64,000 bases of DNA from a phage. This document shows, piece after piece, positions 465 through 17,170 of this stretch. Below the pieces are notes generated by a model. The model had not been told where the DNA came from. It ran no database searches and was given only the letters and a program-made list of their open reading frames with translations. The translations under genes and the position numbers were made by a program. The stretch's first letter is position 1. Each line of letters opens with the position of its first letter. The stretch is from the sequence record PX880100.1; one strand, written 5' to 3'.

Positions 465-958
465 AATTTTATTCTAAGTCTAGGAATTTCAGGCTCCTCT
501 TGATGGACTTGATAAATAACAGGGCTATTATTTACCAGAATATAGCTTATATAAGCTGGAACATAGGATAATACAAATGGATATGGAACTTTAGCTACAT
601 AGCATTGGTATTTTCCGTTATAAATTCTAGCTGAATGCAAAACTTTAGAGGTGACAACATCATAGAACGTAGTTTTCTTCCAGTTAATAAGATTTCCATC
701 AGAATCTATAAATTGGCTACGCTTTGACCCAACTAATTGAGACAACATTGATATTCTACCTCTAATAGGATAGAGCTTGTATGGTAATTCTTTCCGTTTC
801 TCAAATAGAATAAGCCTACGTTGAGAAAAAGTGCCAGGCAACTTCCTGTTATCTAGCACATATTTATTATACCTTGTTGTAATTACGGAATAATCACCTT
901 CTTGTTCAATTGATACAAATGCCCGTAAAGCATATACGGGCAATTTGAAATCAAGCAC
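461..958 (-). CDS. hypothetical protein (165 aa)
   Basis: Track ORF; 8-nt overlap with the polymerase gene and ATGA overlap with the downstream helicase gene; no motif recognised. Confidence 0.5.
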   Translation of the reverse strand: MLDFKLPVYALRAFVSIEQEGDYSVITTRYNKYVLDNRKLPGTFSQRRLILFEKRKELPYKLYPIRGRISMLSQLVGSKRSQFIDSDGNLINWKKTTFYDVVTSKVLHSARIYNGKYQCYVAKVPYPFVLSYVPAYISYILVNNSPVIYQVHQEEPEIPRLRIKL

Positions 959-3518
959 CGAGAATCCTTCTCACGTTATCCAAATCTTTACATACAGCAA
1001 TAAACTTATCATCCTTGTATTTGCTATGATCTGGATGCTCTTTATCCATTGCAGCTAGTTTCTTATACTCGAACTCTGCATCAAGTAATACACCCTTGAC
1101 ATAACGAGTATATTCATCATCATCAATACAAGCGATTGATGGGTGCTGTTTCTTCATCTTACCACAAGAATAGTCACGAGAACCTCCAGCTTCAGAATCT
1201 GAGTCAATACCAATCGGACAACCAGGAATACTGATACCACGGTCTTTCTGAATATTACGAATCAGGATTTCATTGTATTGGTCGATCAAATCCTCACGAA
1301 CAATAGCAACTACGGAGTCGTGAACCAGCATAACAATCTTCATCTCTTGTTCTAGGCCAAGAGAAATGATCTCATTATCTGCATCTACAGCACCTAAAAG
1401 GAGACTATCAGAAGAAGCAGACTGAATGATTGCGTTAAATCCAGAACGGATTTCTTCACCCTGAACACCACGGTCTTCGGAATGGATATTATGCAGACGA
1501 CGTTTACGCCCAAAGTGACTATAGATAAATCCATGATTCTTGATCTGGTCGTGACATTTATCAATCCAACGCTTAAGCTGCGGGAACTGACCGAAGTAAG
1601 TTTCGATATAGTCCTTCGCATCCGCAACAGTACACTCTACAAACGGTTCTCCTGTCTTAGCAGCCTGTTCCAAAAGAGCTTCGTTAACAGAATGAGCTAC
1701 CTTAGCCGGGCCAGAACCATACAAAATACCAAAGGTGATTGCTTTAGCTGCTTGACGCAGAGCTGGGAATAACTTTTTAACATCACGAGGCTCGCATTGG
1801 AGCTTAAATACCATGTGTGCGATGTTAGAGTGGAAGTCAGGGTATTTATCTGGTTCATTTCTCATGTTGATAAATACTTGTTGCATATTTCTATCACCAG
1901 ATAGAACAGCAGCATAATAAACTTCCGCAGTTGTTAAGTCCCATGCAATTACACGATACCCGGGAGGGGCTACTACACAACCCTTGATAATAGATTCATC
2001 ACGAGGTAACTGTTGCAGATTCAGTTTACCAGAAGAACTCAGACGACCAGAAGTAGTCATATGTTCATGGAAGCCAGTACGAATGCAACCATCAGCATCA
2101 ATGCTCAGAAGAATCTTCTCAACGTAAGTAGAGATCAGCTTAGTCAGCTTACGAATCTCTAGTAGGGTCTTAGCAATTGGATGCTGCGTAGACAATTCGT
2201 TCAGAGCTTCTGCATCTGTAGAGTCTGCTCCAGTATCCGTCAATTTACCTGTTGGAGTTAAGCCAACATAATCAAACAGAAGAACACGGAGTTGTTTAAC
2301 AGAGTTTGGGTTAAACGCTTCGTTCTGATCTTTCTCTAGCTGAACGACTTCTGGATAAGTATACAGCTTTTCACGAGCTTTATTCAGATTATGAGTTAAC
2401 TGGTACTGTGCTTCTTTCAAGCGATCAATAGAAATTGGTACACCACGATCTTCAACACGCTGGAGAAATACGCAACCAGGCATTAGAACATCATAATACA
2501 GACTGCAAAGTTTTTCATTCTTCTCAATTTTTGGTAAGAAGAAATTGTGCAAACGTAGGGTGGCATCGGTATCTTTTGCAGCGTAAGGCCACATAATATC
2601 AAACGGAATTAAATCATAGGTGAAATCTTCTTTCTTGATCTTATGTGCTTTGCAGTAATCATCCTTGAACTTATCTAGTTCAAAGTCATAGTCACCCATA
2701 TCGGTATACTTCATTGCTAGAGATTTCAAGCCATGAGTACCACGACGTTCATCTAGAACATAATGCTGCAACATAGTATCATGGAGCCTGCGTTCTTTAT
2801 GCGCTTTATCAAAAGTAAGTCCCAGATGGTACTTATAAAAGTGCATATCAAACTTCAAGTTGTGAAAAACAATAGTGTGGTTTTCACTATCCAGAATTTT
2901 CTGGAGATAATATACTGCAACCTCTGTGAGACAATCAGAATCGATATATACACCCTGATATTCTTGGTGAGACATAGAAACACCAAGCAGATAACCATCT
3001 CGACAGTATAGTGCTGAGGTTTCGGAGTCGAATGCGACAGGTCCGATAACCATATTATACACCATCTTGATATATTCTTCCGCCTCGTCAGGGTCAGTAA
3101 TAGGACGGTAATCACCAGCTTTTGCAATCTTCTCACGACCATTGATAATATCGTGGATATTTTCTACTGTTGCATCGAAAACTGGTTTCATTTCAGGCTT
3201 AAAGTGTAACTGGGCTGGGCTGATACTCGCAATCCAGTTAGCATATCCATTATACTCTACACGTTTACCAGTATAGTCACCAATGCCTTTCTTACCTGCG
3301 AAATACAGGAAAGGTTCAGCACCTACCAGTATAACAAAATCATAATCATTCGGGTCAAATGGGTTTTCCGGAGTCCCAATAGTAATATGCTTTTTGAGCA
3401 AACGACCGGATAACTTCTCGTTACACATATGGAATACATCAACTTCCTCGCCGTATAGCTGGAAATGTTTATCGTAACGAGTGTTATTTAGAGCTTTATC
3501 AACTACTGCGATTTTCAA
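951..3518 (-). CDS. DNA polymerase, family A (Pol I-like) with 3'-5' exonuclease domain
   Basis: 855 aa; exonuclease motif FDSETSALY, polymerase motif B KAITFGILYGSG, motif C-like LVHDSVV; matches T5-type replicative polymerase architecture. Confidence 0.93.
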   Translation of the reverse strand: MKIAVVDKALNNTRYDKHFQLYGEEVDVFHMCNEKLSGRLLKKHITIGTPENPFDPNDYDFVILVGAEPFLYFAGKKGIGDYTGKRVEYNGYANWIASISPAQLHFKPEMKPVFDATVENIHDIINGREKIAKAGDYRPITDPDEAEEYIKMVYNMVIGPVAFDSETSALYCRDGYLLGVSMSHQEYQGVYIDSDCLTEVAVYYLQKILDSENHTIVFHNLKFDMHFYKYHLGLTFDKAHKERRLHDTMLQHYVLDERRGTHGLKSLAMKYTDMGDYDFELDKFKDDYCKAHKIKKEDFTYDLIPFDIMWPYAAKDTDATLRLHNFFLPKIEKNEKLCSLYYDVLMPGCVFLQRVEDRGVPISIDRLKEAQYQLTHNLNKAREKLYTYPEVVQLEKDQNEAFNPNSVKQLRVLLFDYVGLTPTGKLTDTGADSTDAEALNELSTQHPIAKTLLEIRKLTKLISTYVEKILLSIDADGCIRTGFHEHMTTSGRLSSSGKLNLQQLPRDESIIKGCVVAPPGYRVIAWDLTTAEVYYAAVLSGDRNMQQVFINMRNEPDKYPDFHSNIAHMVFKLQCEPRDVKKLFPALRQAAKAITFGILYGSGPAKVAHSVNEALLEQAAKTGEPFVECTVADAKDYIETYFGQFPQLKRWIDKCHDQIKNHGFIYSHFGRKRRLHNIHSEDRGVQGEEIRSGFNAIIQSASSDSLLLGAVDADNEIISLGLEQEMKIVMLVHDSVVAIVREDLIDQYNEILIRNIQKDRGISIPGCPIGIDSDSEAGGSRDYSCGKMKKQHPSIACIDDDEYTRYVKGVLLDAEFEYKKLAAMDKEHPDHSKYKDDKFIAVCKDLDNVRRILGA

Positions 3519-11229: not shown

Positions 11230-11514
11230 TTACGATTCCTTGAGTAAAGAAGCAAGTTCAGCATAGACTTTATCTAACTCAAAGCCGATGCGAAGAGACA
11301 CGTTTGTTTTCCGTTGTTTAAGTAACCACTCGGATATGTTAGGGATGCCAGCTAATCTATGCGGTACCACCCTACATAGCTTTTCCGAAGTGTCGTAAAC
11401 AGGAACTTTACGTTCCTTTACTGGGAACTTCCTTGTTTCCCATTTTTTATTCTTCACTGTCATTTCTAGCACCCAGCTCTGCCATTGCTTCATCATGCAT
11501 ATGTTTCTCCTCAT
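11230..11514 (-). CDS. hypothetical protein (94 aa)
   Basis: Track ORF overlapping the 3' end of the large ATPase gene; no motif recognised. Confidence 0.4.
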   Translation of the reverse strand: MRRNICMMKQWQSWVLEMTVKNKKWETRKFPVKERKVPVYDTSEKLCRVVPHRLAGIPNISEWLLKQRKTNVSLRIGFELDKVYAELASLLKES

Positions 11515-14236
11515 CAGTCATAAACTTATACGGGATTGGCATACACTCGATTTTACAATAGGTTCTGTACCAGTCTACAATATTCTCCGTGTTCATATCC
11601 TTACCAATACCCATCATACCAAGATACATTCTTGCATATTTTGGGTTAGCACTCTGACCTGTTTTAAGGAAGAAATCTTTCTTCTTACCTTTCAGAGCTT
11701 CTATGAATGGTTTGATAGTGACATTTGAACACTTCTTAATATCTTCCCAGAACATCTCGTGCATCTTATGGAAGAATGCAGCTCGATCATTCGGTTTATC
11801 CTTGATATATTGTTCAACATGCTCAACTGTTACATCTTTAATAGACTCAAGATGATAGTAGCGAACAAGAAGTAGTTTAGCTTCATACGCATCTGCATGG
11901 CGTGGAGCACAATAATCAGGAGTTGAATACAAAATAGCTTTGATTCGCTCTTCCGTATATTCCTTCCCAGCACCTTCGATAGTTCCCCAGCTTTCACTGA
12001 AAATATCAATAGTTGCACCCTGATCAAGCAAGTAATAACGTAAAGTACTAGTATAATTCCTAGACTCCAGCTCCCTGCGACGTGCGTATAATTGCTGTGC
12101 TAACTCCAGCCAACCTTCATCAATGTTATATTGCTCAGAACCTGCGGAGAATCCACTCGTAGATTTATCAATAAAATAATAAATGTTCTGAGCGCCACGG
12201 TCGCGCCTGATTGCTTGGAAACGCATGTTTGGCGCTTGGTTGCTGGTTCTAGTAATAACGAATACGTTATCAAAATAGTTGAAATCAACACCACTAGTTA
12301 CGGATGGGCTACATAATAAGCAATCAATTTGTTGGTCAATTAGCTCATTAGTTGTGTAATCCAGAATACGTCGAATATCCACATCAGATGTGGAGTTTGA
12401 GTGGATTTCCTTAACTAACGCACCCGTATTACGACGCAGCGCCATGCCCTTCTCATTCAGTTCATCAGGACCACAATCAGATACCAGAATAGATTTCTCA
12501 CCCATTTCTAGAGAAGTCTGAAGTGCAACCCAAATACTGGATTCATCCGGGAACTCATAAGCATGAGCTTTTGACAGCATCTTACGGTGATGATTATAAA
12601 ATGCTACTGGTTTATCAAACTCAATCAAAGAGCCATATGCTTCAATTGTTTCTGCACTAATATCCCCATCAGATAATATAATAATTTTTGCAGTTGCAAG
12701 AATGTCCCGAAGAACCTGAATACATTCACGACGTTGTTTAACAACCGGGGCGAATAATAGGTCATTCATTACAGCATCACATTCATCGATAAAGATTGCA
12801 TCAATTTGACCAATAAAACTCTTGAACTTATGCAAAGAGTGAATAGTTGTGGACATACGGTCAATAGCACCACGCTTAAAATTAAGCATATCTACAGACT
12901 TATCATATTGTCCTGCACTGAATTTCTTAGCATTTGAAGACACCAGCGCTCTAGTATTGGTAATTGCTAAGAAATTACCTTTAATAACTCCCGAATCTAA
13001 CCAACGCACAACCGCCGTAGTTTTACCTGTACCTAGACTTGCTTTTACAAAAGTCATATAACCTTCTGGTGGCACAGTATTTAATTTCAAGAAGTTATCA
13101 GTTTCTAGAGAATTAGTTTCTAGCTTTTTAAGTGGAATACCTTTTAAAACATCTGGTATATCACGTTTAGAATTATTAACAAATGCTTTCAGAGCCTGTT
13201 TACGACCATTATTAAAGTAATCTTGAATATTGCGACTATTATCTTTAGTTGCAATATATTCTGATAAGGCTGGACGAATTTCTTTTTCTAGCCATGCAAA
13301 ATCAACACCATCCTCCAAAGCTCTATGATAGAGTTTAGGGATAATACGTAGATACACCCCATCCTCAGCTTCTTCTAGTTCGCTGATAGTTTCCTCTACT
13401 TTATCAGAGGCAGCTTTTTTACCTTTAATTTGATCGAGTAAAGAGTAAAACTCCTCCTTAAACTCACCTCTAGTTGTTTCATAGTCAACCAGATTATTGG
13501 GTAAATTTACTTTAGAACCCTTAACAAATACCAGACGTGAAGCACCCTCCGCTTTAAACGGATCTACTATACCATCAATAAATAACGGATCTGCAAAATA
13601 ATGGAGCTGTACGGAAGAGTAATAAGCTAAGTCGGCAATATCAAAGCCATACTTTTGTCTACTACTTTCGTTGATAGATGTAAATAAGAATTTGATTTGA
13701 CCCTGAGTTACTTTAACATTAGATTCTAGTATTAAGTGCATTCGGATACCTGGTTTTAGCCCAGCCGAAGACGATGCATGAGCAATAAACCCTGCATCAA
13801 GAGGAAACATATCCTCACTAATACTATTTAACATTCTAATAATATGTCGAGCCATGCCAACAAGATCAAACTTGTTACAACCACCTGTATCTACAATACC
13901 ATCCACGTCCATTGCAATTATATGACTTGGGTTAGATACATTAAAGTTGCCCTTCTTACGTCGCACATTATTTTTAGGTGCAAGACATCGACCTCGTACC
14001 GCAACGATATGAGGGTCAGACGTTAAACGTCTCATAAGAGGAAGCATTTCTACTAGGGTTTGAGGATCAACTTCATCAATTACATCAAACTTGAAGGGCA
14101 TTGAAGCTGGTTTACCTTCAGGATGCTTTGAGGAAAATCTTTTAGCAAAAAGATAGTCTTCTGCTTTAACTTCTCGCCAATTGCCTGTGGCTAAATCGCG
14201 ATGAAATCCTGCATGACCTTGTAGGATTGAGAACAC
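11447..14236 (-). CDS. origin-binding/replication-initiation type P-loop helicase-like ATPase (T5 D2-like by size and position)
   Basis: Track ORF 11447..14314; Walker A SLGTGKTTAVV; GTG at 14236 preceded by ACAGGAG RBS is the likelier start; family assignment tentative. Confidence 0.6.
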   Translation of the reverse strand: MFSILQGHAGFHRDLATGNWREVKAEDYLFAKRFSSKHPEGKPASMPFKFDVIDEVDPQTLVEMLPLMRRLTSDPHIVAVRGRCLAPKNNVRRKKGNFNVSNPSHIIAMDVDGIVDTGGCNKFDLVGMARHIIRMLNSISEDMFPLDAGFIAHASSSAGLKPGIRMHLILESNVKVTQGQIKFLFTSINESSRQKYGFDIADLAYYSSVQLHYFADPLFIDGIVDPFKAEGASRLVFVKGSKVNLPNNLVDYETTRGEFKEEFYSLLDQIKGKKAASDKVEETISELEEAEDGVYLRIIPKLYHRALEDGVDFAWLEKEIRPALSEYIATKDNSRNIQDYFNNGRKQALKAFVNNSKRDIPDVLKGIPLKKLETNSLETDNFLKLNTVPPEGYMTFVKASLGTGKTTAVVRWLDSGVIKGNFLAITNTRALVSSNAKKFSAGQYDKSVDMLNFKRGAIDRMSTTIHSLHKFKSFIGQIDAIFIDECDAVMNDLLFAPVVKQRRECIQVLRDILATAKIIILSDGDISAETIEAYGSLIEFDKPVAFYNHHRKMLSKAHAYEFPDESSIWVALQTSLEMGEKSILVSDCGPDELNEKGMALRRNTGALVKEIHSNSTSDVDIRRILDYTTNELIDQQIDCLLCSPSVTSGVDFNYFDNVFVITRTSNQAPNMRFQAIRRDRGAQNIYYFIDKSTSGFSAGSEQYNIDEGWLELAQQLYARRRELESRNYTSTLRYYLLDQGATIDIFSESWGTIEGAGKEYTEERIKAILYSTPDYCAPRHADAYEAKLLLVRYYHLESIKDVTVEHVEQYIKDKPNDRAAFFHKMHEMFWEDIKKCSNVTIKPFIEALKGKKKDFFLKTGQSANPKYARMYLGMMGIGKDMNTENIVDWYRTYCKIECMPIPYKFMTDEEKHMHDEAMAELGARNDSEE

Positions 14237-14359
14237 AACAATACTCCTGTGTTGGAAATGAAATAAGTTTTCTTTAGGACTATTCAGAAAGAATAGAACA
14301 ACTGTTACTGTCAATTTCTCAACAAATTAATTGCAAATACTGAAGTGGGGTGGCAACTT

Positions 14360-14764: not shown

Positions 14765-14840
14765 GTAAAATTTTCCGGATGGTGCTATCATTGGTCTTGA
14801 GTACGAGTAAAACCGAGCCAAAATGACTCGGTTATGTAGA

Positions 14841-15038
14841 TTAGACACTTAAAATACTTCTAATCTCTTCTATATACTTATCTACTTTTTTAGCATCTAC
14901 TTTACTTAGTTTTCCTATGTCAAAATCAGGATCAGTAAACATTCTAGCTATCTCTATCTCTAGAGACTTACTAATTTTCCCTGTAGTATTCCACTTAGAA
15001 ATCTTACCTTTTATCTTCCAAAATTCCTTATTCATCAT
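14841..15038 (-). CDS. hypothetical protein (65 aa)
   Basis: Track ORF co-oriented with neighbours. Confidence 0.45.
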   Translation of the reverse strand: MMNKEFWKIKGKISKWNTTGKISKSLEIEIARMFTDPDFDIGKLSKVDAKKVDKYIEEIRSILSV

Positions 15039-15118
15039 TTAACCCCGGAACATATATCCCAACACGGTTTAATTGTTCTTTAGCTTCTTTGAGAATATCT
15101 GGAGTGTACTCCCAAATA

Positions 15119-15421
15119 TCATCTTCCACCTGTAAAAAAATGGGGCGAACAACCATCATCCGGCACACGACATATGGCCAAACAACGTGGATGGAACAAA
15201 GAGAAATTTAGGGCAACAATTAAACCCATAGCAGACAATTCATTCCAATCCAATTCCCATTCCCCGGCGTATCCAGACAGGAAAACGCCAATGCATGGAT
15301 CATCTATTTGCTGCTCAGGAAAAGTGAAAGAGACTTGTCTTACCCCCAACCAACGTTGTAGCAGCTTCTCCGCACGTTTCACCAAACTAGGATCAATCTG
15401 ACGCCAATATACTTGTTCCAT
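15119..15421 (-). CDS. hypothetical protein (100 aa), paralog of the adjacent gene
   Basis: Shares DDPCIGVFLSGYAGEWELDWNELSAMGLIVALNFSLF with DEAPCIGLIVQVEEGLEEIVGWKELDEMGLVFALNYKLF in ORF 15431..15859. Confidence 0.55.
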   Translation of the reverse strand: MEQVYWRQIDPSLVKRAEKLLQRWLGVRQVSFTFPEQQIDDPCIGVFLSGYAGEWELDWNELSAMGLIVALNFSLFHPRCLAICRVPDDGCSPHFFTGGR

Positions 15422-15430
15422 TCTGCCTCC

Positions 15431-15859
15431 TTAAGCAGTTAAACCTGGGATCATATACCCGAAACGGCGAAGTTTTTGGATACCATCATTCACTTCTTCT
15501 GGTGAGTAAGACCAACCATAACGTTCATTAACCTGAAAACCAGGAGATTCACTAGTTTTATAGTTAACAACGAGGCGATGCTTAGCAGACATAAACAGCT
15601 TATAGTTTAACGCAAAAACTAAGCCCATTTCATCTAACTCTTTCCAGCCGACAATCTCTTCAAGGCCCTCTTCTACCTGAACAATTAAACCAATACAGGG
15701 GGCCTCATCAATATCATCTTTAAAAGCAAAGGAGATTTCGTTATTCTCACACCATATTTTCAAGGAGTTAATAGCCTCATTATACAGGCTAGCCGGGAGA
15801 GTACGCCAAAAGTTAACCAAAATTGGGTTAGCTTCTTTAGAGAAGACATTATTAAACAT
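15431..15859 (-). CDS. hypothetical protein (142 aa), paralog of the adjacent gene
   Basis: Track ORF; C-terminal half homologous to ORF 15119..15421 (tandem duplication). Confidence 0.55.
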   Translation of the reverse strand: MFNNVFSKEANPILVNFWRTLPASLYNEAINSLKIWCENNEISFAFKDDIDEAPCIGLIVQVEEGLEEIVGWKELDEMGLVFALNYKLFMSAKHRLVVNYKTSESPGFQVNERYGWSYSPEEVNDGIQKLRRFGYMIPGLTA

Positions 15860-15861
15860 AT

Positions 15862-16374
15862 TTACACCTTAAATTGTTGTAGGGCTTTACACATTTCAAG
15901 ATCTGGACTAAATTCTAACATATAGCTAACAGCTTTTAAATCCTGAAGATTTATCCCGGTCCTACCGTTGACTATAACCGTTGGATACTGATACATCATA
16001 GCACCCCCATCATCAAGCACACACCAATGTTTGAGCTTATGCTTTTCAACGAAGCGAAGAACAGAATTACCCCTAGATAATCCACCCCCAGTAAAATCCG
16101 TTGTACCAAGAAAACGATCGATAAGACCTAATCCGGTCATAATCTGAACGTTCTCCATCTCATTTCTGACAGAGAACCAAGATGATACTCCAACAATCAT
16201 TATCGGAGAAGGACGAATAAAGTCCTGAAAAGCCTTGAGAAGCGGTTTGAAAACCCAGTCACTTCCAAAGAAAATCTTTTCATCATCAGGTGCATGATGG
16301 TGGGAGATGCTTGAATTGAGCACCCCATCAATGTCCAGAAAAATAATTGGAGTATTACTTATTTCCTGACACAT
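15862..16374 (-). CDS. HAD-superfamily hydrolase (phosphatase/nucleotidase-like)
   Basis: 170 aa; N-terminal IIFLDIDGVLNS matches HAD motif I (DxDG[TV]); 20-nt overlap with upstream Sir2-like gene. Confidence 0.6.
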   Translation of the reverse strand: MCQEISNTPIIFLDIDGVLNSSISHHHAPDDEKIFFGSDWVFKPLLKAFQDFIRPSPIMIVGVSSWFSVRNEMENVQIMTGLGLIDRFLGTTDFTGGGLSRGNSVLRFVEKHKLKHWCVLDDGGAMMYQYPTVIVNGRTGINLQDLKAVSYMLEFSPDLEMCKALQQFKV

Positions 16375-17170
16375 GAGGTCTACCCCCTAAATGAGCTTCT
16401 ACACGAGCAATAAAATCAGGATCACTGAAAGCATCTACCGCACCTTTACTCCAGTAAGGGATACCGCGTTCTTCCAGCTGGTACATCTCACTACGAGTCA
16501 TACCTTGATAGCCAGGTTCCGCCGCTAGGGCACTATCATAGTAGTTAACAACCATTAGCTTGGCAGCAGTCAAATTAAGAACAGGAAATAGTTCCCAGTA
16601 GAAGTTAATTACTTGGTTAGAGCAACCAACCACAATGATCATATCTTGACTGGTAATACCATCAAAAACATTGTACATTTCCGCATATGCTGGAGCATGC
16701 TCTCCAAAGAAGATTACATTAGGTTTAACCCATTTATAATCATCTGGATCAATAGAATTGTATCCTACATCAATAATCCGTTTATTGCTACTATTGTAGC
16801 TATCAGCTACAACAACCTCTTTTAAATATCCGTGAATGTGCAGAATGTCACTATGTGGAACGCCAGCACGCTCAATAAGGTCATCAACGTTGGTAGTCAA
16901 GTTTACTACTTGACCTGGATATTGTTTATACCATTCACCAATACGCAAATGCGCAAGATTGGGTTCAACAGTTTTTAGCTCTTCACGACGCCTGTTGTAA
17001 AACATATGGGTTTTATGATAAAAATTACCACGAAAGGCATGAATATTGCATACCTCTTCTAAGTCATAATCATCCCACAATGCTTTACCACTAGCAGTAT
17101 CAGTACGGAAGGCTCGTACACCGCTTTCAACACTCAAACCTGCACCGCTAATAACAATTAATCTACGCAT
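16355..17170 (-). CDS. Sir2-family NAD-dependent enzyme (zinc-ribbon-less sirtuin-like protein)
   Basis: 271 aa; GAGLSVESGVRAFR, TTNVDDL, HIHG and NVIFFGE motifs in Sir2 order; no CxxC zinc-ribbon cysteines after the HG motif. Confidence 0.7.
   Translation of the reverse strand: MRRLIVISGAGLSVESGVRAFRTDTASGKALWDDYDLEEVCNIHAFRGNFYHKTHMFYNRRREELKTVEPNLAHLRIGEWYKQYPGQVVNLTTNVDDLIERAGVPHSDILHIHGYLKEVVVADSYNSSNKRIIDVGYNSIDPDDYKWVKPNVIFFGEHAPAYAEMYNVFDGITSQDMIIVVGCSNQVINFYWELFPVLNLTAAKLMVVNYYDSALAAEPGYQGMTRSEMYQLEERGIPYWSKGAVDAFSDPDFIARVEAHLGGRPHVSGNK

What the first reader, a model, noticed from the sequence alone, without database searches (positions are those of the whole stretch)
15119..15859. 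Tandem paralogous small genes
The adjacent ORFs 15119..15421 and 15431..15859 share a clearly related ~40-residue block (PCIG...W(N/K)EL(S/D)(A/E)MGL(I/V)(V/F)ALN(F/Y)(S/K)LF) with different N-terminal extensions. A recent tandem duplication with divergence in a phage early region often marks genes under host-range or anti-defence selection.
Basis: seen in the sequence. Interest (0 to 1): 0.4.

Follow-up and report, generated by a model that had tools for sequence, protein, structure and literature searches.

The report
Old T5 paralog pair, one frameshifted
The two neighbouring small genes are real relatives, but they are the long-known, anciently duplicated T5 early genes T5.106/T5.107 (domain family DUF7415, function unknown), and in this sequence the second copy is broken by one extra base in a run of seven T's.

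Summary
In detail: the two minus-strand ORFs are paralogs (BLASTP E=3e-14). One extra T in a T7 run (window 15134-15140) shifts the frame, and the missing C-terminal third lies in the next frame (15028-15135). Repaired, the two proteins align end to end (about 30% identity).

The window is a T5-like phage. The pair corresponds to T5.106 (142 aa) and T5.107 (130 aa), both Pfam DUF7415 / phrog_2502.

The duplication is not recent. About two copies occur per genome in 524 phage records, and both types sit at the same position in the distant Klebsiella genus Sugarlandvirus. Both are under purifying selection (dN/dS about 0.09-0.10).

Divergence is asymmetric. Copy A (T5.107 type) keeps 17 of 22 conserved core positions of the wider family; copy B keeps 8. 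A published CRISPRi-ART screen calls T5.107 one of 17 fitness genes of T5 and T5.106 not.

The frameshift is private to this sequence: either a homopolymer sequencing error or a very recent mutation.

Neither model matches a solved structure. Genomic context and domain fusions point to an early replication / nucleotide-metabolism accessory role, which is inferred only.

It is a known family and of modest interest.

The parts
15431..15859 (-). Paralog B: intact 142-aa DUF7415 protein, ortholog of T5.106. This is the copy with the degenerate core.
   Evidence: AF2 model pLDDT 87.8. Keeps only 8 of 22 conserved core positions.
15140..15421 (-). Paralog A, native codons 1-94 (Met1 to His94), ortholog of T5.107. 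This is the copy with the canonical core. The ORF as read (15119..15421) adds 6 out-of-frame codons (FFTGGR) and a stop.
   Evidence: Keeps 17 of 22 conserved core positions.
15134..15140 (-). Run of seven T (A7 on the + strand): the frameshift site. Relatives read CAT CTT TTA CAG; the window reads CAT TTT TTT ACA G (a C>T change plus one extra T).
   Evidence: The allele is absent from IMG/VR, JGI metagenomes, GTDB genomes and the gene-product index.
15028..15135 (-). C-terminal remnant of paralog A (Leu96 to Glu130 plus stop), in the +1 frame relative to the N-terminal part. It lies inside the mechanical ORF 15028..15168.
   Evidence: (phrog_2502 positions 97-134, E=3.6e-13).
15426..15430 (-). 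GGAGG ribosome-binding site for paralog A, in the 9-nt spacer after the stop codon of B.
   Evidence: Read directly from the sequence: TAAGGAGGCAGAATG on the minus strand.
15862..16374 (-). Upstream neighbour: a HAD-family hydrolase (Pfam HAD_SAK_2), ortholog of T5.105. Its stop codon lies 2 nt before the start of B.
16355..17170 (-). Sir2-family protein, ortholog of T5.102, in the same operon.
14841..15038 (-). 65-aa ORF (phrog_29527) whose start overlaps the stop of paralog A. It is the last gene before the terminator.
14807..14833 (-). Terminator-like hairpin AACCGAG-tcattttg-GCTCGGTT followed by TTTAC, marking the end of the operon.
   Evidence: sequence. A terminator is annotated at the equivalent place in phage HASG4. 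The consensus scan did not report it.
11447..14314 (-). Downstream gene: replication-origin-binding helicase, ortholog of T5.108. Included as context only.

Best explanation
SHOWN. The two ORFs are the orthologs of the phage T5 early genes T5.106 (B, 142 aa) and T5.107 (A, 130 aa). They form a tandem pair of DUF7415 / phrog_2502 proteins that arose by an old gene duplication, before Markadamsvirinae and Sugarlandvirus diverged. Both are kept under purifying selection at a fixed position: (nrdD)-Sir2-(HAD)-B-A-terminator-origin-binding helicase.

The two copies diverged asymmetrically. A keeps the canonical ~55-residue DUF7415 core (D-W-N-E-L-S..G-L...N....H-P.G-L-A..R....G.S), the same core found as a free-standing small protein in T4-like, P2-like and other phages. 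B has lost most of the conserved polar residues of that core but keeps the shared N-terminal part and C-terminal helix.

In this window, copy A is interrupted after His94 by one extra T in a T7 run. That removes a beta-strand, the invariant Trp103 and Tyr105, the C-terminal helix and the invariant G..GL end. The change is private to this sequence and shows no downstream decay. It is therefore either a homopolymer sequencing error or a very recent mutation; I lean slightly toward error.

INFERRED (about 0.25). The DUF7415 core is a small binding module for a partner or a nucleotide-like ligand, and it acts early in infection within the replication / nucleotide-supply module. A supplies that activity, which fits its fitness effect in T5. 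B is a degenerated paralog that works through its retained scaffold, possibly as a partner of A.

The overall confidence of 0.6 blends about 0.95 for identity, orthology and the frameshift, about 0.8 for the old age and the asymmetry, and about 0.25 for the mechanism.
For: Paralogy.

Orthology and synteny with T5.106/T5.107.

Age of the duplication: 524 records with 1037 places; the Klebsiella Sugarlandvirus pair at the same position; the tree and identities group its upstream gene with B (36% vs 22%) and its downstream gene with A (33% vs 26%).

Purifying selection: dN/dS 0.088 (B) and 0.102 (A).

Asymmetry: an HMM built only from 49 single-unit homologs scores A cores at 60-81 bits and B cores at 22-32 bits. 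A keeps 17 and B keeps 8 of 22 conserved core positions. The single-copy Slocum-type protein has B-like termini and an A-like core. Natural in-frame deletion of the B core occurs in 7 contigs; a 74-aa DUF7415 protein of phage SE11 is probably the same variant.

Frameshift. It is private. A is intact in all 31 related loci and covers at least 80% of the query in 436 of 441 records. dN downstream of the site is not raised (0.017 vs 0.027 upstream).

Fitness: the CRISPRi-ART screen lists T5.107 as Fit and T5.106 as Not Fit (PMC11879866 supplements).

Context and fusions: in JD18 the gene lies between nrdD and nrdG. In P2-like phages it follows replication gene A and the ASCH-like orf91, or is fused to that domain. 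There are fusions to dATP/dGTP pyrophosphohydrolase, thymidylate kinase and ASCH/DUF3850. In the neighbour census, Phage_GPA occurs in 10 of 30 loci and Dam-class methylase in 6, with RNR and NUDIX also present.

Against: The context evidence is weak. Phage early regions are crowded with small genes, several contexts are only arrays of hypothetical genes, and the neighbour census is biased toward P2-like elements by the search pattern. Some fusion partners bind DNA instead (Cox, HTH_17).

Nothing tested here shows that A and B interact.

The T5.107 'Fit' call is marginal (0.0215), and the authors warn of poor guide consistency outside the T5 pre-early region.

If T5.107 matters for fitness, a truly broken copy in a viable phage is awkward. 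That is one reason to suspect a sequencing error, but it cannot be settled from the sequence.
Confidence: 0.6

Rival explanations
1. The frameshift is a sequencing or assembly error in a homopolymer. The real phage has T6 and encodes an intact 130-aa copy A carrying L95F. This is a rival only for the state of copy A in this genome.
For: The site is a 7-base homopolymer. A is under purifying selection and is called Fit in T5. There is no decay downstream. The allele is found nowhere else. The other A disruption that was read base by base is also a homopolymer insertion: OQ291061, G5 to G6. A second genome of the same Kenya submission series, Kenya-K18, has the A match split in two pieces, but that site was not read.
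Against: The assembly is not error-ridden: only about 3 uncompensated 1-bp indels fall inside CDSs over 38 kb compared with a 96%-identical genome. The site also carries a real substitution (C>T), which lengthens the run and would make slippage more likely in vivo as well. The in-frame T6 intermediate was not found in IMG/VR.
Confidence: 0.5
2. One reading: a recent tandem duplication whose copies are diverging under host-range or anti-defence (arms-race) selection.
For: The genes are tandem paralogs in an early region. T5.107 is a fitness gene of unknown function, and the screen's authors suggest such genes may include defence inhibitors. Each copy is occasionally damaged or trimmed in nature, as accessory genes often are.
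Against: The duplication is old and fixed. dN/dS is 0.09-0.10 for both copies. Copy number is stable at two in Markadamsvirinae and Sugarlandvirus. PADLOC finds no match, although that library does not cover counter-defence.
Confidence: 0.1
3. Each protein is itself an internal tandem of two DUF7415 units (helix plus beta-hairpin, twice), so the locus records a domain duplication nested inside a gene duplication.
For: The Pfam DUF7415 model hits the N- and C-terminal halves of both proteins separately, all above its 27-bit cut-off: 72, 53, 61 and 50 bits. The models show a helix followed by two strands, twice over.
Against: BLAST between the halves finds nothing. hhalign of the N-half profile against the C-half profile gives no in-register match. 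An HMM built only from single-unit homologs hits only the C-terminal unit, with N-halves scoring at most 1.1 bits against a shuffled maximum of 7.1. The Pfam seed may simply contain both kinds of segment.
Confidence: 0.3
4. The T7 run is a programmed recoding site (+1 ribosomal frameshift, or transcriptional slippage that drops one U) that still yields full-length copy A.
For: Runs of 7 U/A can slip at low frequency (general knowledge, not tested here). Losing one U in the mRNA would restore the frame exactly (read from the sequence).
Against: The run is absent from all 27 relatives examined at this site, which read CATCTTTTACAG with the gene in one frame. There is no unusual RNA structure nearby (z=-0.11). 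Rfam finds nothing. A recoding site private to one genome is not a conserved mechanism.
Confidence: 0.03
5. The proteins are what some GenBank records call them: an exonuclease, a tail tube protein or a tail protein.
For: Only the names given in some records.
Against: There is no nuclease or tail-family hit in Pfam, PHROGs or NCBIfam. No structural similarity to such proteins was found. The genes lie in the early operon, far from the structural module.
Confidence: 0.02

Closest known systems
Phage T5 genes T5.106 (YP_006934) and T5.107 (YP_006935)
   Same: Same order, spacing, lengths (429 and 393 nt) and flanking genes. Protein identity is about 92% for B and about 95% for A in the T5 locus L015. 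Both are annotated hypothetical, and both belong to phrog_2502.
   Different: In the window, the T5.107 ortholog carries a +1 T frameshift after codon 94 and a private G80C change. The small genes T5.103 and T5.104 between Sir2 and HAD are absent here.
Pfam DUF7415 (PF24187) single-unit phage proteins, e.g. Klebsiella phage JD18_054 (72 aa) and Escherichia phage Wphi orf92/gp92
   Same: They share the ~55-residue core (WNELS..GL...N..ILHP.GLA..R...G.S) with the C-terminal unit of A, and more weakly with that of B. They are also early genes next to replication or nucleotide-metabolism genes.
   Different: They lack the ~55-residue N-terminal part and often the C-terminal helix of the T5-type proteins, and they occur as one gene, not a pair.
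Single-copy two-part homolog of Serratia phage Slocum (CPT_Slocum_143, 164 aa)
   Same: Same two-part architecture and the same position directly after Sir2 and before the origin-binding helicase.
   Different: It is a single gene that combines B-like termini with a canonical, A-like core. It shows what the pair may have looked like before the duplication, or what remains after loss of one copy.
Fusion proteins dATP/dGTP pyrophosphohydrolase-DUF7415, DUF7415-thymidylate kinase and ASCH/DUF3850-DUF7415
   Same: They contain the same core unit.
   Different: There the unit is attached to a recognisable enzyme or ASCH domain. The window proteins contain no such domain.

Membership tests
Pfam DUF7415 (PF24187) | Whole-protein score above the curated gathering cut-off of 27 bits | tested here: met
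   ORF A scores 107.3 bits and ORF B 120.9 bits.
PHROG phrog_2502 | Significant full-length match to the 134-position profile | tested here: met
   B covers positions 2-134 with E=2.7e-61. A covers 4-102 with E=1.2e-43, and the 46-aa ORF covers 97-134 with E=3.6e-13.
T5.106/T5.107 orthologous pair | Conserved position and order: Sir2-(HAD)-B-A-terminator-origin-binding helicase | tested here: met
T5.106/T5.107 orthologous pair | Both genes intact (142 aa and about 130 aa) | tested here: not met
   B is intact. A is frameshifted after codon 94 in this window only.
DUF7415 fold as predicted for viral proteins (BFVD) | The predicted structure superposes on other DUF7415 models | tested here: met
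   TM 0.86/0.93 to the A-type protein of phage mar003J3. Only DUF7415 entries are significant.
Recent, lineage-specific tandem duplication | High identity between the copies and restriction to a narrow clade | tested here: not met
   Identity is 29-37%. The pair is present in Tequintavirus, Epseptimavirus and Sugarlandvirus.
Arms-race (diversifying selection) gene | Elevated dN/dS or hypervariability among close relatives | tested here: not met
   Gene-wide dN/dS is 0.088 and 0.102. Site-specific models were not run.
Known anti-phage defence or counter-defence protein | Match to a catalogued family, or an experimentally shown inhibition | tested here: inconclusive
   PADLOC finds no hit, but it does not model counter-defence proteins. 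No experiment is available.
Programmed ribosomal frameshift / transcriptional slippage site | Slippery run conserved in relatives, with two conserved overlapping frames | tested here: not met
   Relatives read CATCTTTTACAG and have a single frame. No stimulatory RNA structure is present.
Exonuclease / tail tube protein (names in some GenBank records) | Nuclease or tail-tube domain or fold | tested here: not met

The most novel reading that the evidence does not exclude
DUF7415 is a structurally new small phage module that binds a nucleotide-like ligand, or a replication or dNTP-supply protein. In T5-like phages it would work as an asymmetric A/B pair with one 'live' and one degenerate site, comparable to an enzyme/pseudo-enzyme heterodimer. 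This would explain why T5.107 is one of the few fitness genes of T5. On this reading the broken copy A in this phage would be a natural loss-of-function variant, tolerated on its host.
Probability: 0.15. Interest if true: 0.5.

Novelty: already known. Interest (0 to 1): 0.2.

Why it matters
As a finding in this window it matters little. The pair has been annotated in T5 since the reference genome, both genes already sit in one PHROG and one Pfam DUF, and the frameshift is a one-base private event that may be an error.

The family is of some wider interest. DUF7415 is widespread in T5-like, T4-like and P2-like phages. It has no solved or recognisable fold relative. The canonical copy (T5.107) is one of only 17 genes scored as fitness-relevant in a genome-wide T5 knock-down screen, yet nothing is known about what it does.

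The asymmetric A/B divergence and the natural variants described here give concrete handles for experiments: an in-frame deletion of the B core, and frameshifts in A.

For annotation, several GenBank names for these proteins ('exonuclease', 'tail tube protein') and for the HAD neighbour ('Sir2') are unsupported.

Tried and rejected
1. Internal repeat. Pfam hits both halves, but BLAST, hhalign and an independent single-unit HMM do not connect the halves. I left this as inconclusive.

3. Word-indexed protein searches stayed within T5-like phages. Only the exhaustive HMM search reached the wider family.

4. Looking for the T7 allele or the in-frame T6 intermediate in IMG/VR, JGI metagenomes, GTDB genomes and the gene-product index found nothing.

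5. Literature searches for 'DUF7415' and for the T5 locus tags in main texts found nothing. A search on the HAD 'Swiss Army Knife' family gave nothing relevant.

7. Private substitutions at conserved sites (A G80C, B P91S) as evidence of real decay: rejected as weak, because 4 of 20 (A) and 2 of 30 (B) other genomes also carry such changes.

8. A stimulatory RNA structure or an Rfam element at the frameshift site: none found.

Full report
**What is in the sequence.** Both ORFs are on the minus strand. ORF B (15431..15859, 142 aa) is followed after 9 nt, which contain a GGAGG ribosome-binding site, by ORF A (15119..15421, 100 aa). Their products align with E=3e-14, 37% identity over 73 residues.

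A third, purely mechanical ORF (15028..15168, 46 aa) lies in another frame. It resembles the C-terminus of B (E=2e-6) and matches positions 97-134 of phrog_2502, while ORF A matches positions 4-102 of the same profile. So ORF A plus the 46-aa ORF together make one gene that has been split by a frameshift.

**The frameshift.** The window is a T5-like phage: 430 phage records match, and the best is 96.7% identical (Tequintavirus). In phages SaI_NFG_5581, Spc35 and HASG4 the corresponding gene is a single 393-nt CDS of 130 aa. The DNA alignment places the difference precisely. Relatives read CCCCA-TCTTTTACAG, and the window reads CCCCATTTTTTTACAG, which is a C>T change plus one extra T, giving a T7 run at window 15134-15140.

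- All 31 related loci examined have gene A in one frame.
- 24 of the 27 A genes extracted read CATCTTTTACAG at this site; the search pattern found no match in the other three, and none has the T7 run.
- In a wider survey, 436 of 441 phage records cover at least 80% of intact A. Only 1 of 60 listed records is split in two pieces.
- The T7 allele is absent from IMG/VR, the JGI metagenomes, the GTDB genomes and the gene-product index.
- The in-frame T6 intermediate is absent from IMG/VR.

Against the nearest genome (FGS017, 96%), only about three uncompensated 1-bp indels fall inside a CDS over 38 kb. The assembly is therefore not riddled with homopolymer errors. The part of A downstream of the site shows no excess nonsynonymous change (dN 0.017, against 0.027 upstream). 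There is no unusual RNA structure (z=-0.11) and no Rfam match. The event is either a residual homopolymer error or a very recent mutation, and the sequence alone cannot decide which.

The truncated product ends after His94. It loses strand 95-97, the invariant Trp103 and Tyr105, helix 107-120 and the invariant C-terminal G..GL motif.

**What the genes are.** In phage T5 they are T5.106 (142 aa) and T5.107 (130 aa), both annotated hypothetical. They lie at the end of an early operon that starts at a promoter after nrdD and ends at a terminator before the origin-binding helicase T5.108. The window has the same layout: Sir2 (16355..17170), a HAD_SAK_2 hydrolase (15862..16374), B, A, a 65-aa ORF, a terminator-like hairpin at about 14807-14833, and then the helicase. 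Both proteins belong to Pfam DUF7415 and phrog_2502. NCBIfam and PADLOC have nothing.

**Age and selection.** A tblastn search with B finds 524 phage records and 1037 places, about two per genome. These span Tequintavirus (>90% identity), Epseptimavirus (~74%) and Klebsiella T5-like phages (~35%). In Klebsiella phage Uniso31 (Sugarlandvirus) a 155-aa gene and a 131-aa gene occupy the same position after Sir2. The upstream gene groups with B (36% identity to B, 22% to A) and the downstream gene with A (33% to A, 26% to B) (neighbour-joining tree without bootstrap). The duplication therefore predates the split of these genera and is not recent.

Among Tequintavirus orthologs, dN/dS is 0.088 for B and 0.102 for A, against 0.048 for the HAD neighbour. 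That is purifying selection, not an arms-race signature. Site-specific models were not run.

**Asymmetric divergence.** An exhaustive profile search of 1.84 billion representative proteins found 144 relatives. Most share only a ~55-residue core and are small proteins of 70-110 aa. All 46 relatives that were scanned are DUF7415.

- An HMM built only from 49 such single-unit proteins scores the C-terminal unit of A-type proteins at 60-81 bits and that of B-type proteins at 22-32 bits.
- Of 22 strongly conserved core positions, A keeps 17 and B keeps 8. B has lost Asn7, Ser10, His24, Gly-Leu-Ala27-29, Arg32 and Asp47 (core numbering).
- Serratia phage Slocum has a single two-part gene at this position. 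Its termini are closer to B and its core closer to A. B's core thus seems to have degenerated in lineages where A is present.
- Natural variants agree with this. Seven metagenomic contigs carry a B gene with a clean in-frame deletion of residues ~56-122, which removes the whole core. A 74-aa DUF7415 protein from Salmonella phage SE11 among the BFVD hits is probably the same variant, though its sequence was not read.
- Phage OQ291061 has an independent +1 insertion in a G-run of gene A.

**Experimental literature.** No paper uses the name DUF7415. The CRISPRi-ART screen of T5 (Nat Microbiol 2025, PMC11879866) lists T5.107 among 17 'Fit' genes and describes it as of entirely unknown function. 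T5.106, T5.105 and T5.108 are 'Not Fit'. The per-gene table gives T5.107 as -2.90 with 0.0215, and T5.106 as -3.28 with 0.167. The authors warn of inconsistent guides outside the pre-early region. The copy with the canonical core is thus the one with a measured fitness effect, and it is the copy broken in this window.

The Pfam model hits the two halves of each protein separately. BLAST, hhalign and my single-unit HMM do not link the halves, so an internal repeat remains unproven.

**Functional clues (inference).**
- In the T4-like phage JD18, a 72-aa single-unit gene lies between nrdD and nrdG and overlaps both.
- In P2-like phages the unit follows replication gene A and the ASCH-like orf91, or is fused to that domain.
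- Other fusions are to dATP/dGTP pyrophosphohydrolase, thymidylate kinase, a ClpX-type zinc finger, Cox and HTH_17.
- In 30 non-redundant IMG/VR loci the commonest neighbours are Phage_GPA (10) and Dam-class methylase (6), with RNR subunits and NUDIX also present. This census is biased toward P2-like elements.
- Other contexts are uninformative arrays of small genes.

The most economical reading is an early accessory module tied to replication and nucleotide supply. In that reading A carries the ancestral binding site and B is a degenerated paralog that acts through its scaffold. I put this mechanism at about 0.25. The identity, age and asymmetry of the pair are well supported.

**Verdict.** The feature is an already catalogued gene pair of unknown function, with a private one-base frameshift in one copy. 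Interest is low to modest.

Noticed in passing
window 15862..16374 (-): This gene is a HAD-family hydrolase (Pfam HAD_SAK_2, E=8.8e-20). Several phage records and phrog_18062 nevertheless name it 'Sir2 (NAD-dependent deacetylase)'. This looks like an annotation carried over from the real Sir2 gene next door.
   Followed up: partly
window 15028..15859 (-), and orthologs in GenBank records: Orthologs of the two DUF7415 genes are variously named 'exonuclease', 'Phage exonuclease (ACLAME 70)', 'tail tube protein', 'tail protein' or 'tail assembly protein'. None of these names is supported by domain or fold comparison.
   Followed up: yes
window 30147 and 30464: These are two more uncompensated 1-bp differences from phage FGS017 inside annotated CDSs. 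One is A7>A6, 46 nt before the end of an 'exonuclease' gene. The other is a 1-bp deletion near the end of a hypothetical gene. They may alter C-termini or be homopolymer errors.
   Followed up: no
L044 (Salmonella phage OQ291061.1), locus 800..2701: This phage has an independent +1 G insertion (G5>G6) near codon 25 of the T5.107-type gene. It also lacks the Sir2 gene between nrdD and the HAD gene.
   Followed up: partly
L045 2501..2725, L046, L047: A natural variant of the T5.106-type gene has an in-frame deletion of residues ~56-122. The 74-aa product keeps the N-terminal part and the C-terminal helix. Seven contigs carry it; the three places shown come from three samples. A 74-aa DUF7415 protein from Salmonella phage SE11 (BFVD hit) is probably the same variant, but its sequence was not read.
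   Followed up: partly
window 15182..15184 (A codon 80) and 15587..15589 (B codon 91): There are private substitutions at sites invariant in all sampled relatives: A G80C and B P91S. Both lie in the conserved H-P-x-G turn of the core. Such private hits also occur in a few other genomes, so they are not clearly meaningful.
   Followed up: yes
window 16355..16374: Here the Sir2 gene overlaps the HAD gene directly. T5 has two small genes (T5.103, T5.104) between them and HASG4 has one, so this spot is variable among T5-like phages.
   Followed up: no
L035 (Klebsiella phage JD18) 3489..3707: A 72-aa single-unit DUF7415 gene is wedged between nrdD and nrdG and overlaps both. The same arrangement is indicated for many Jiaodavirus genomes in the tblastn table.
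   Followed up: partly
P0055 (718 aa, from the representative search): This protein consists of 13 near-identical ~53-residue repeats that match the C-terminal part of the B/A profile (positions 91-125). It is probably a translated tandem DNA repeat or an assembly artefact.
   Followed up: no
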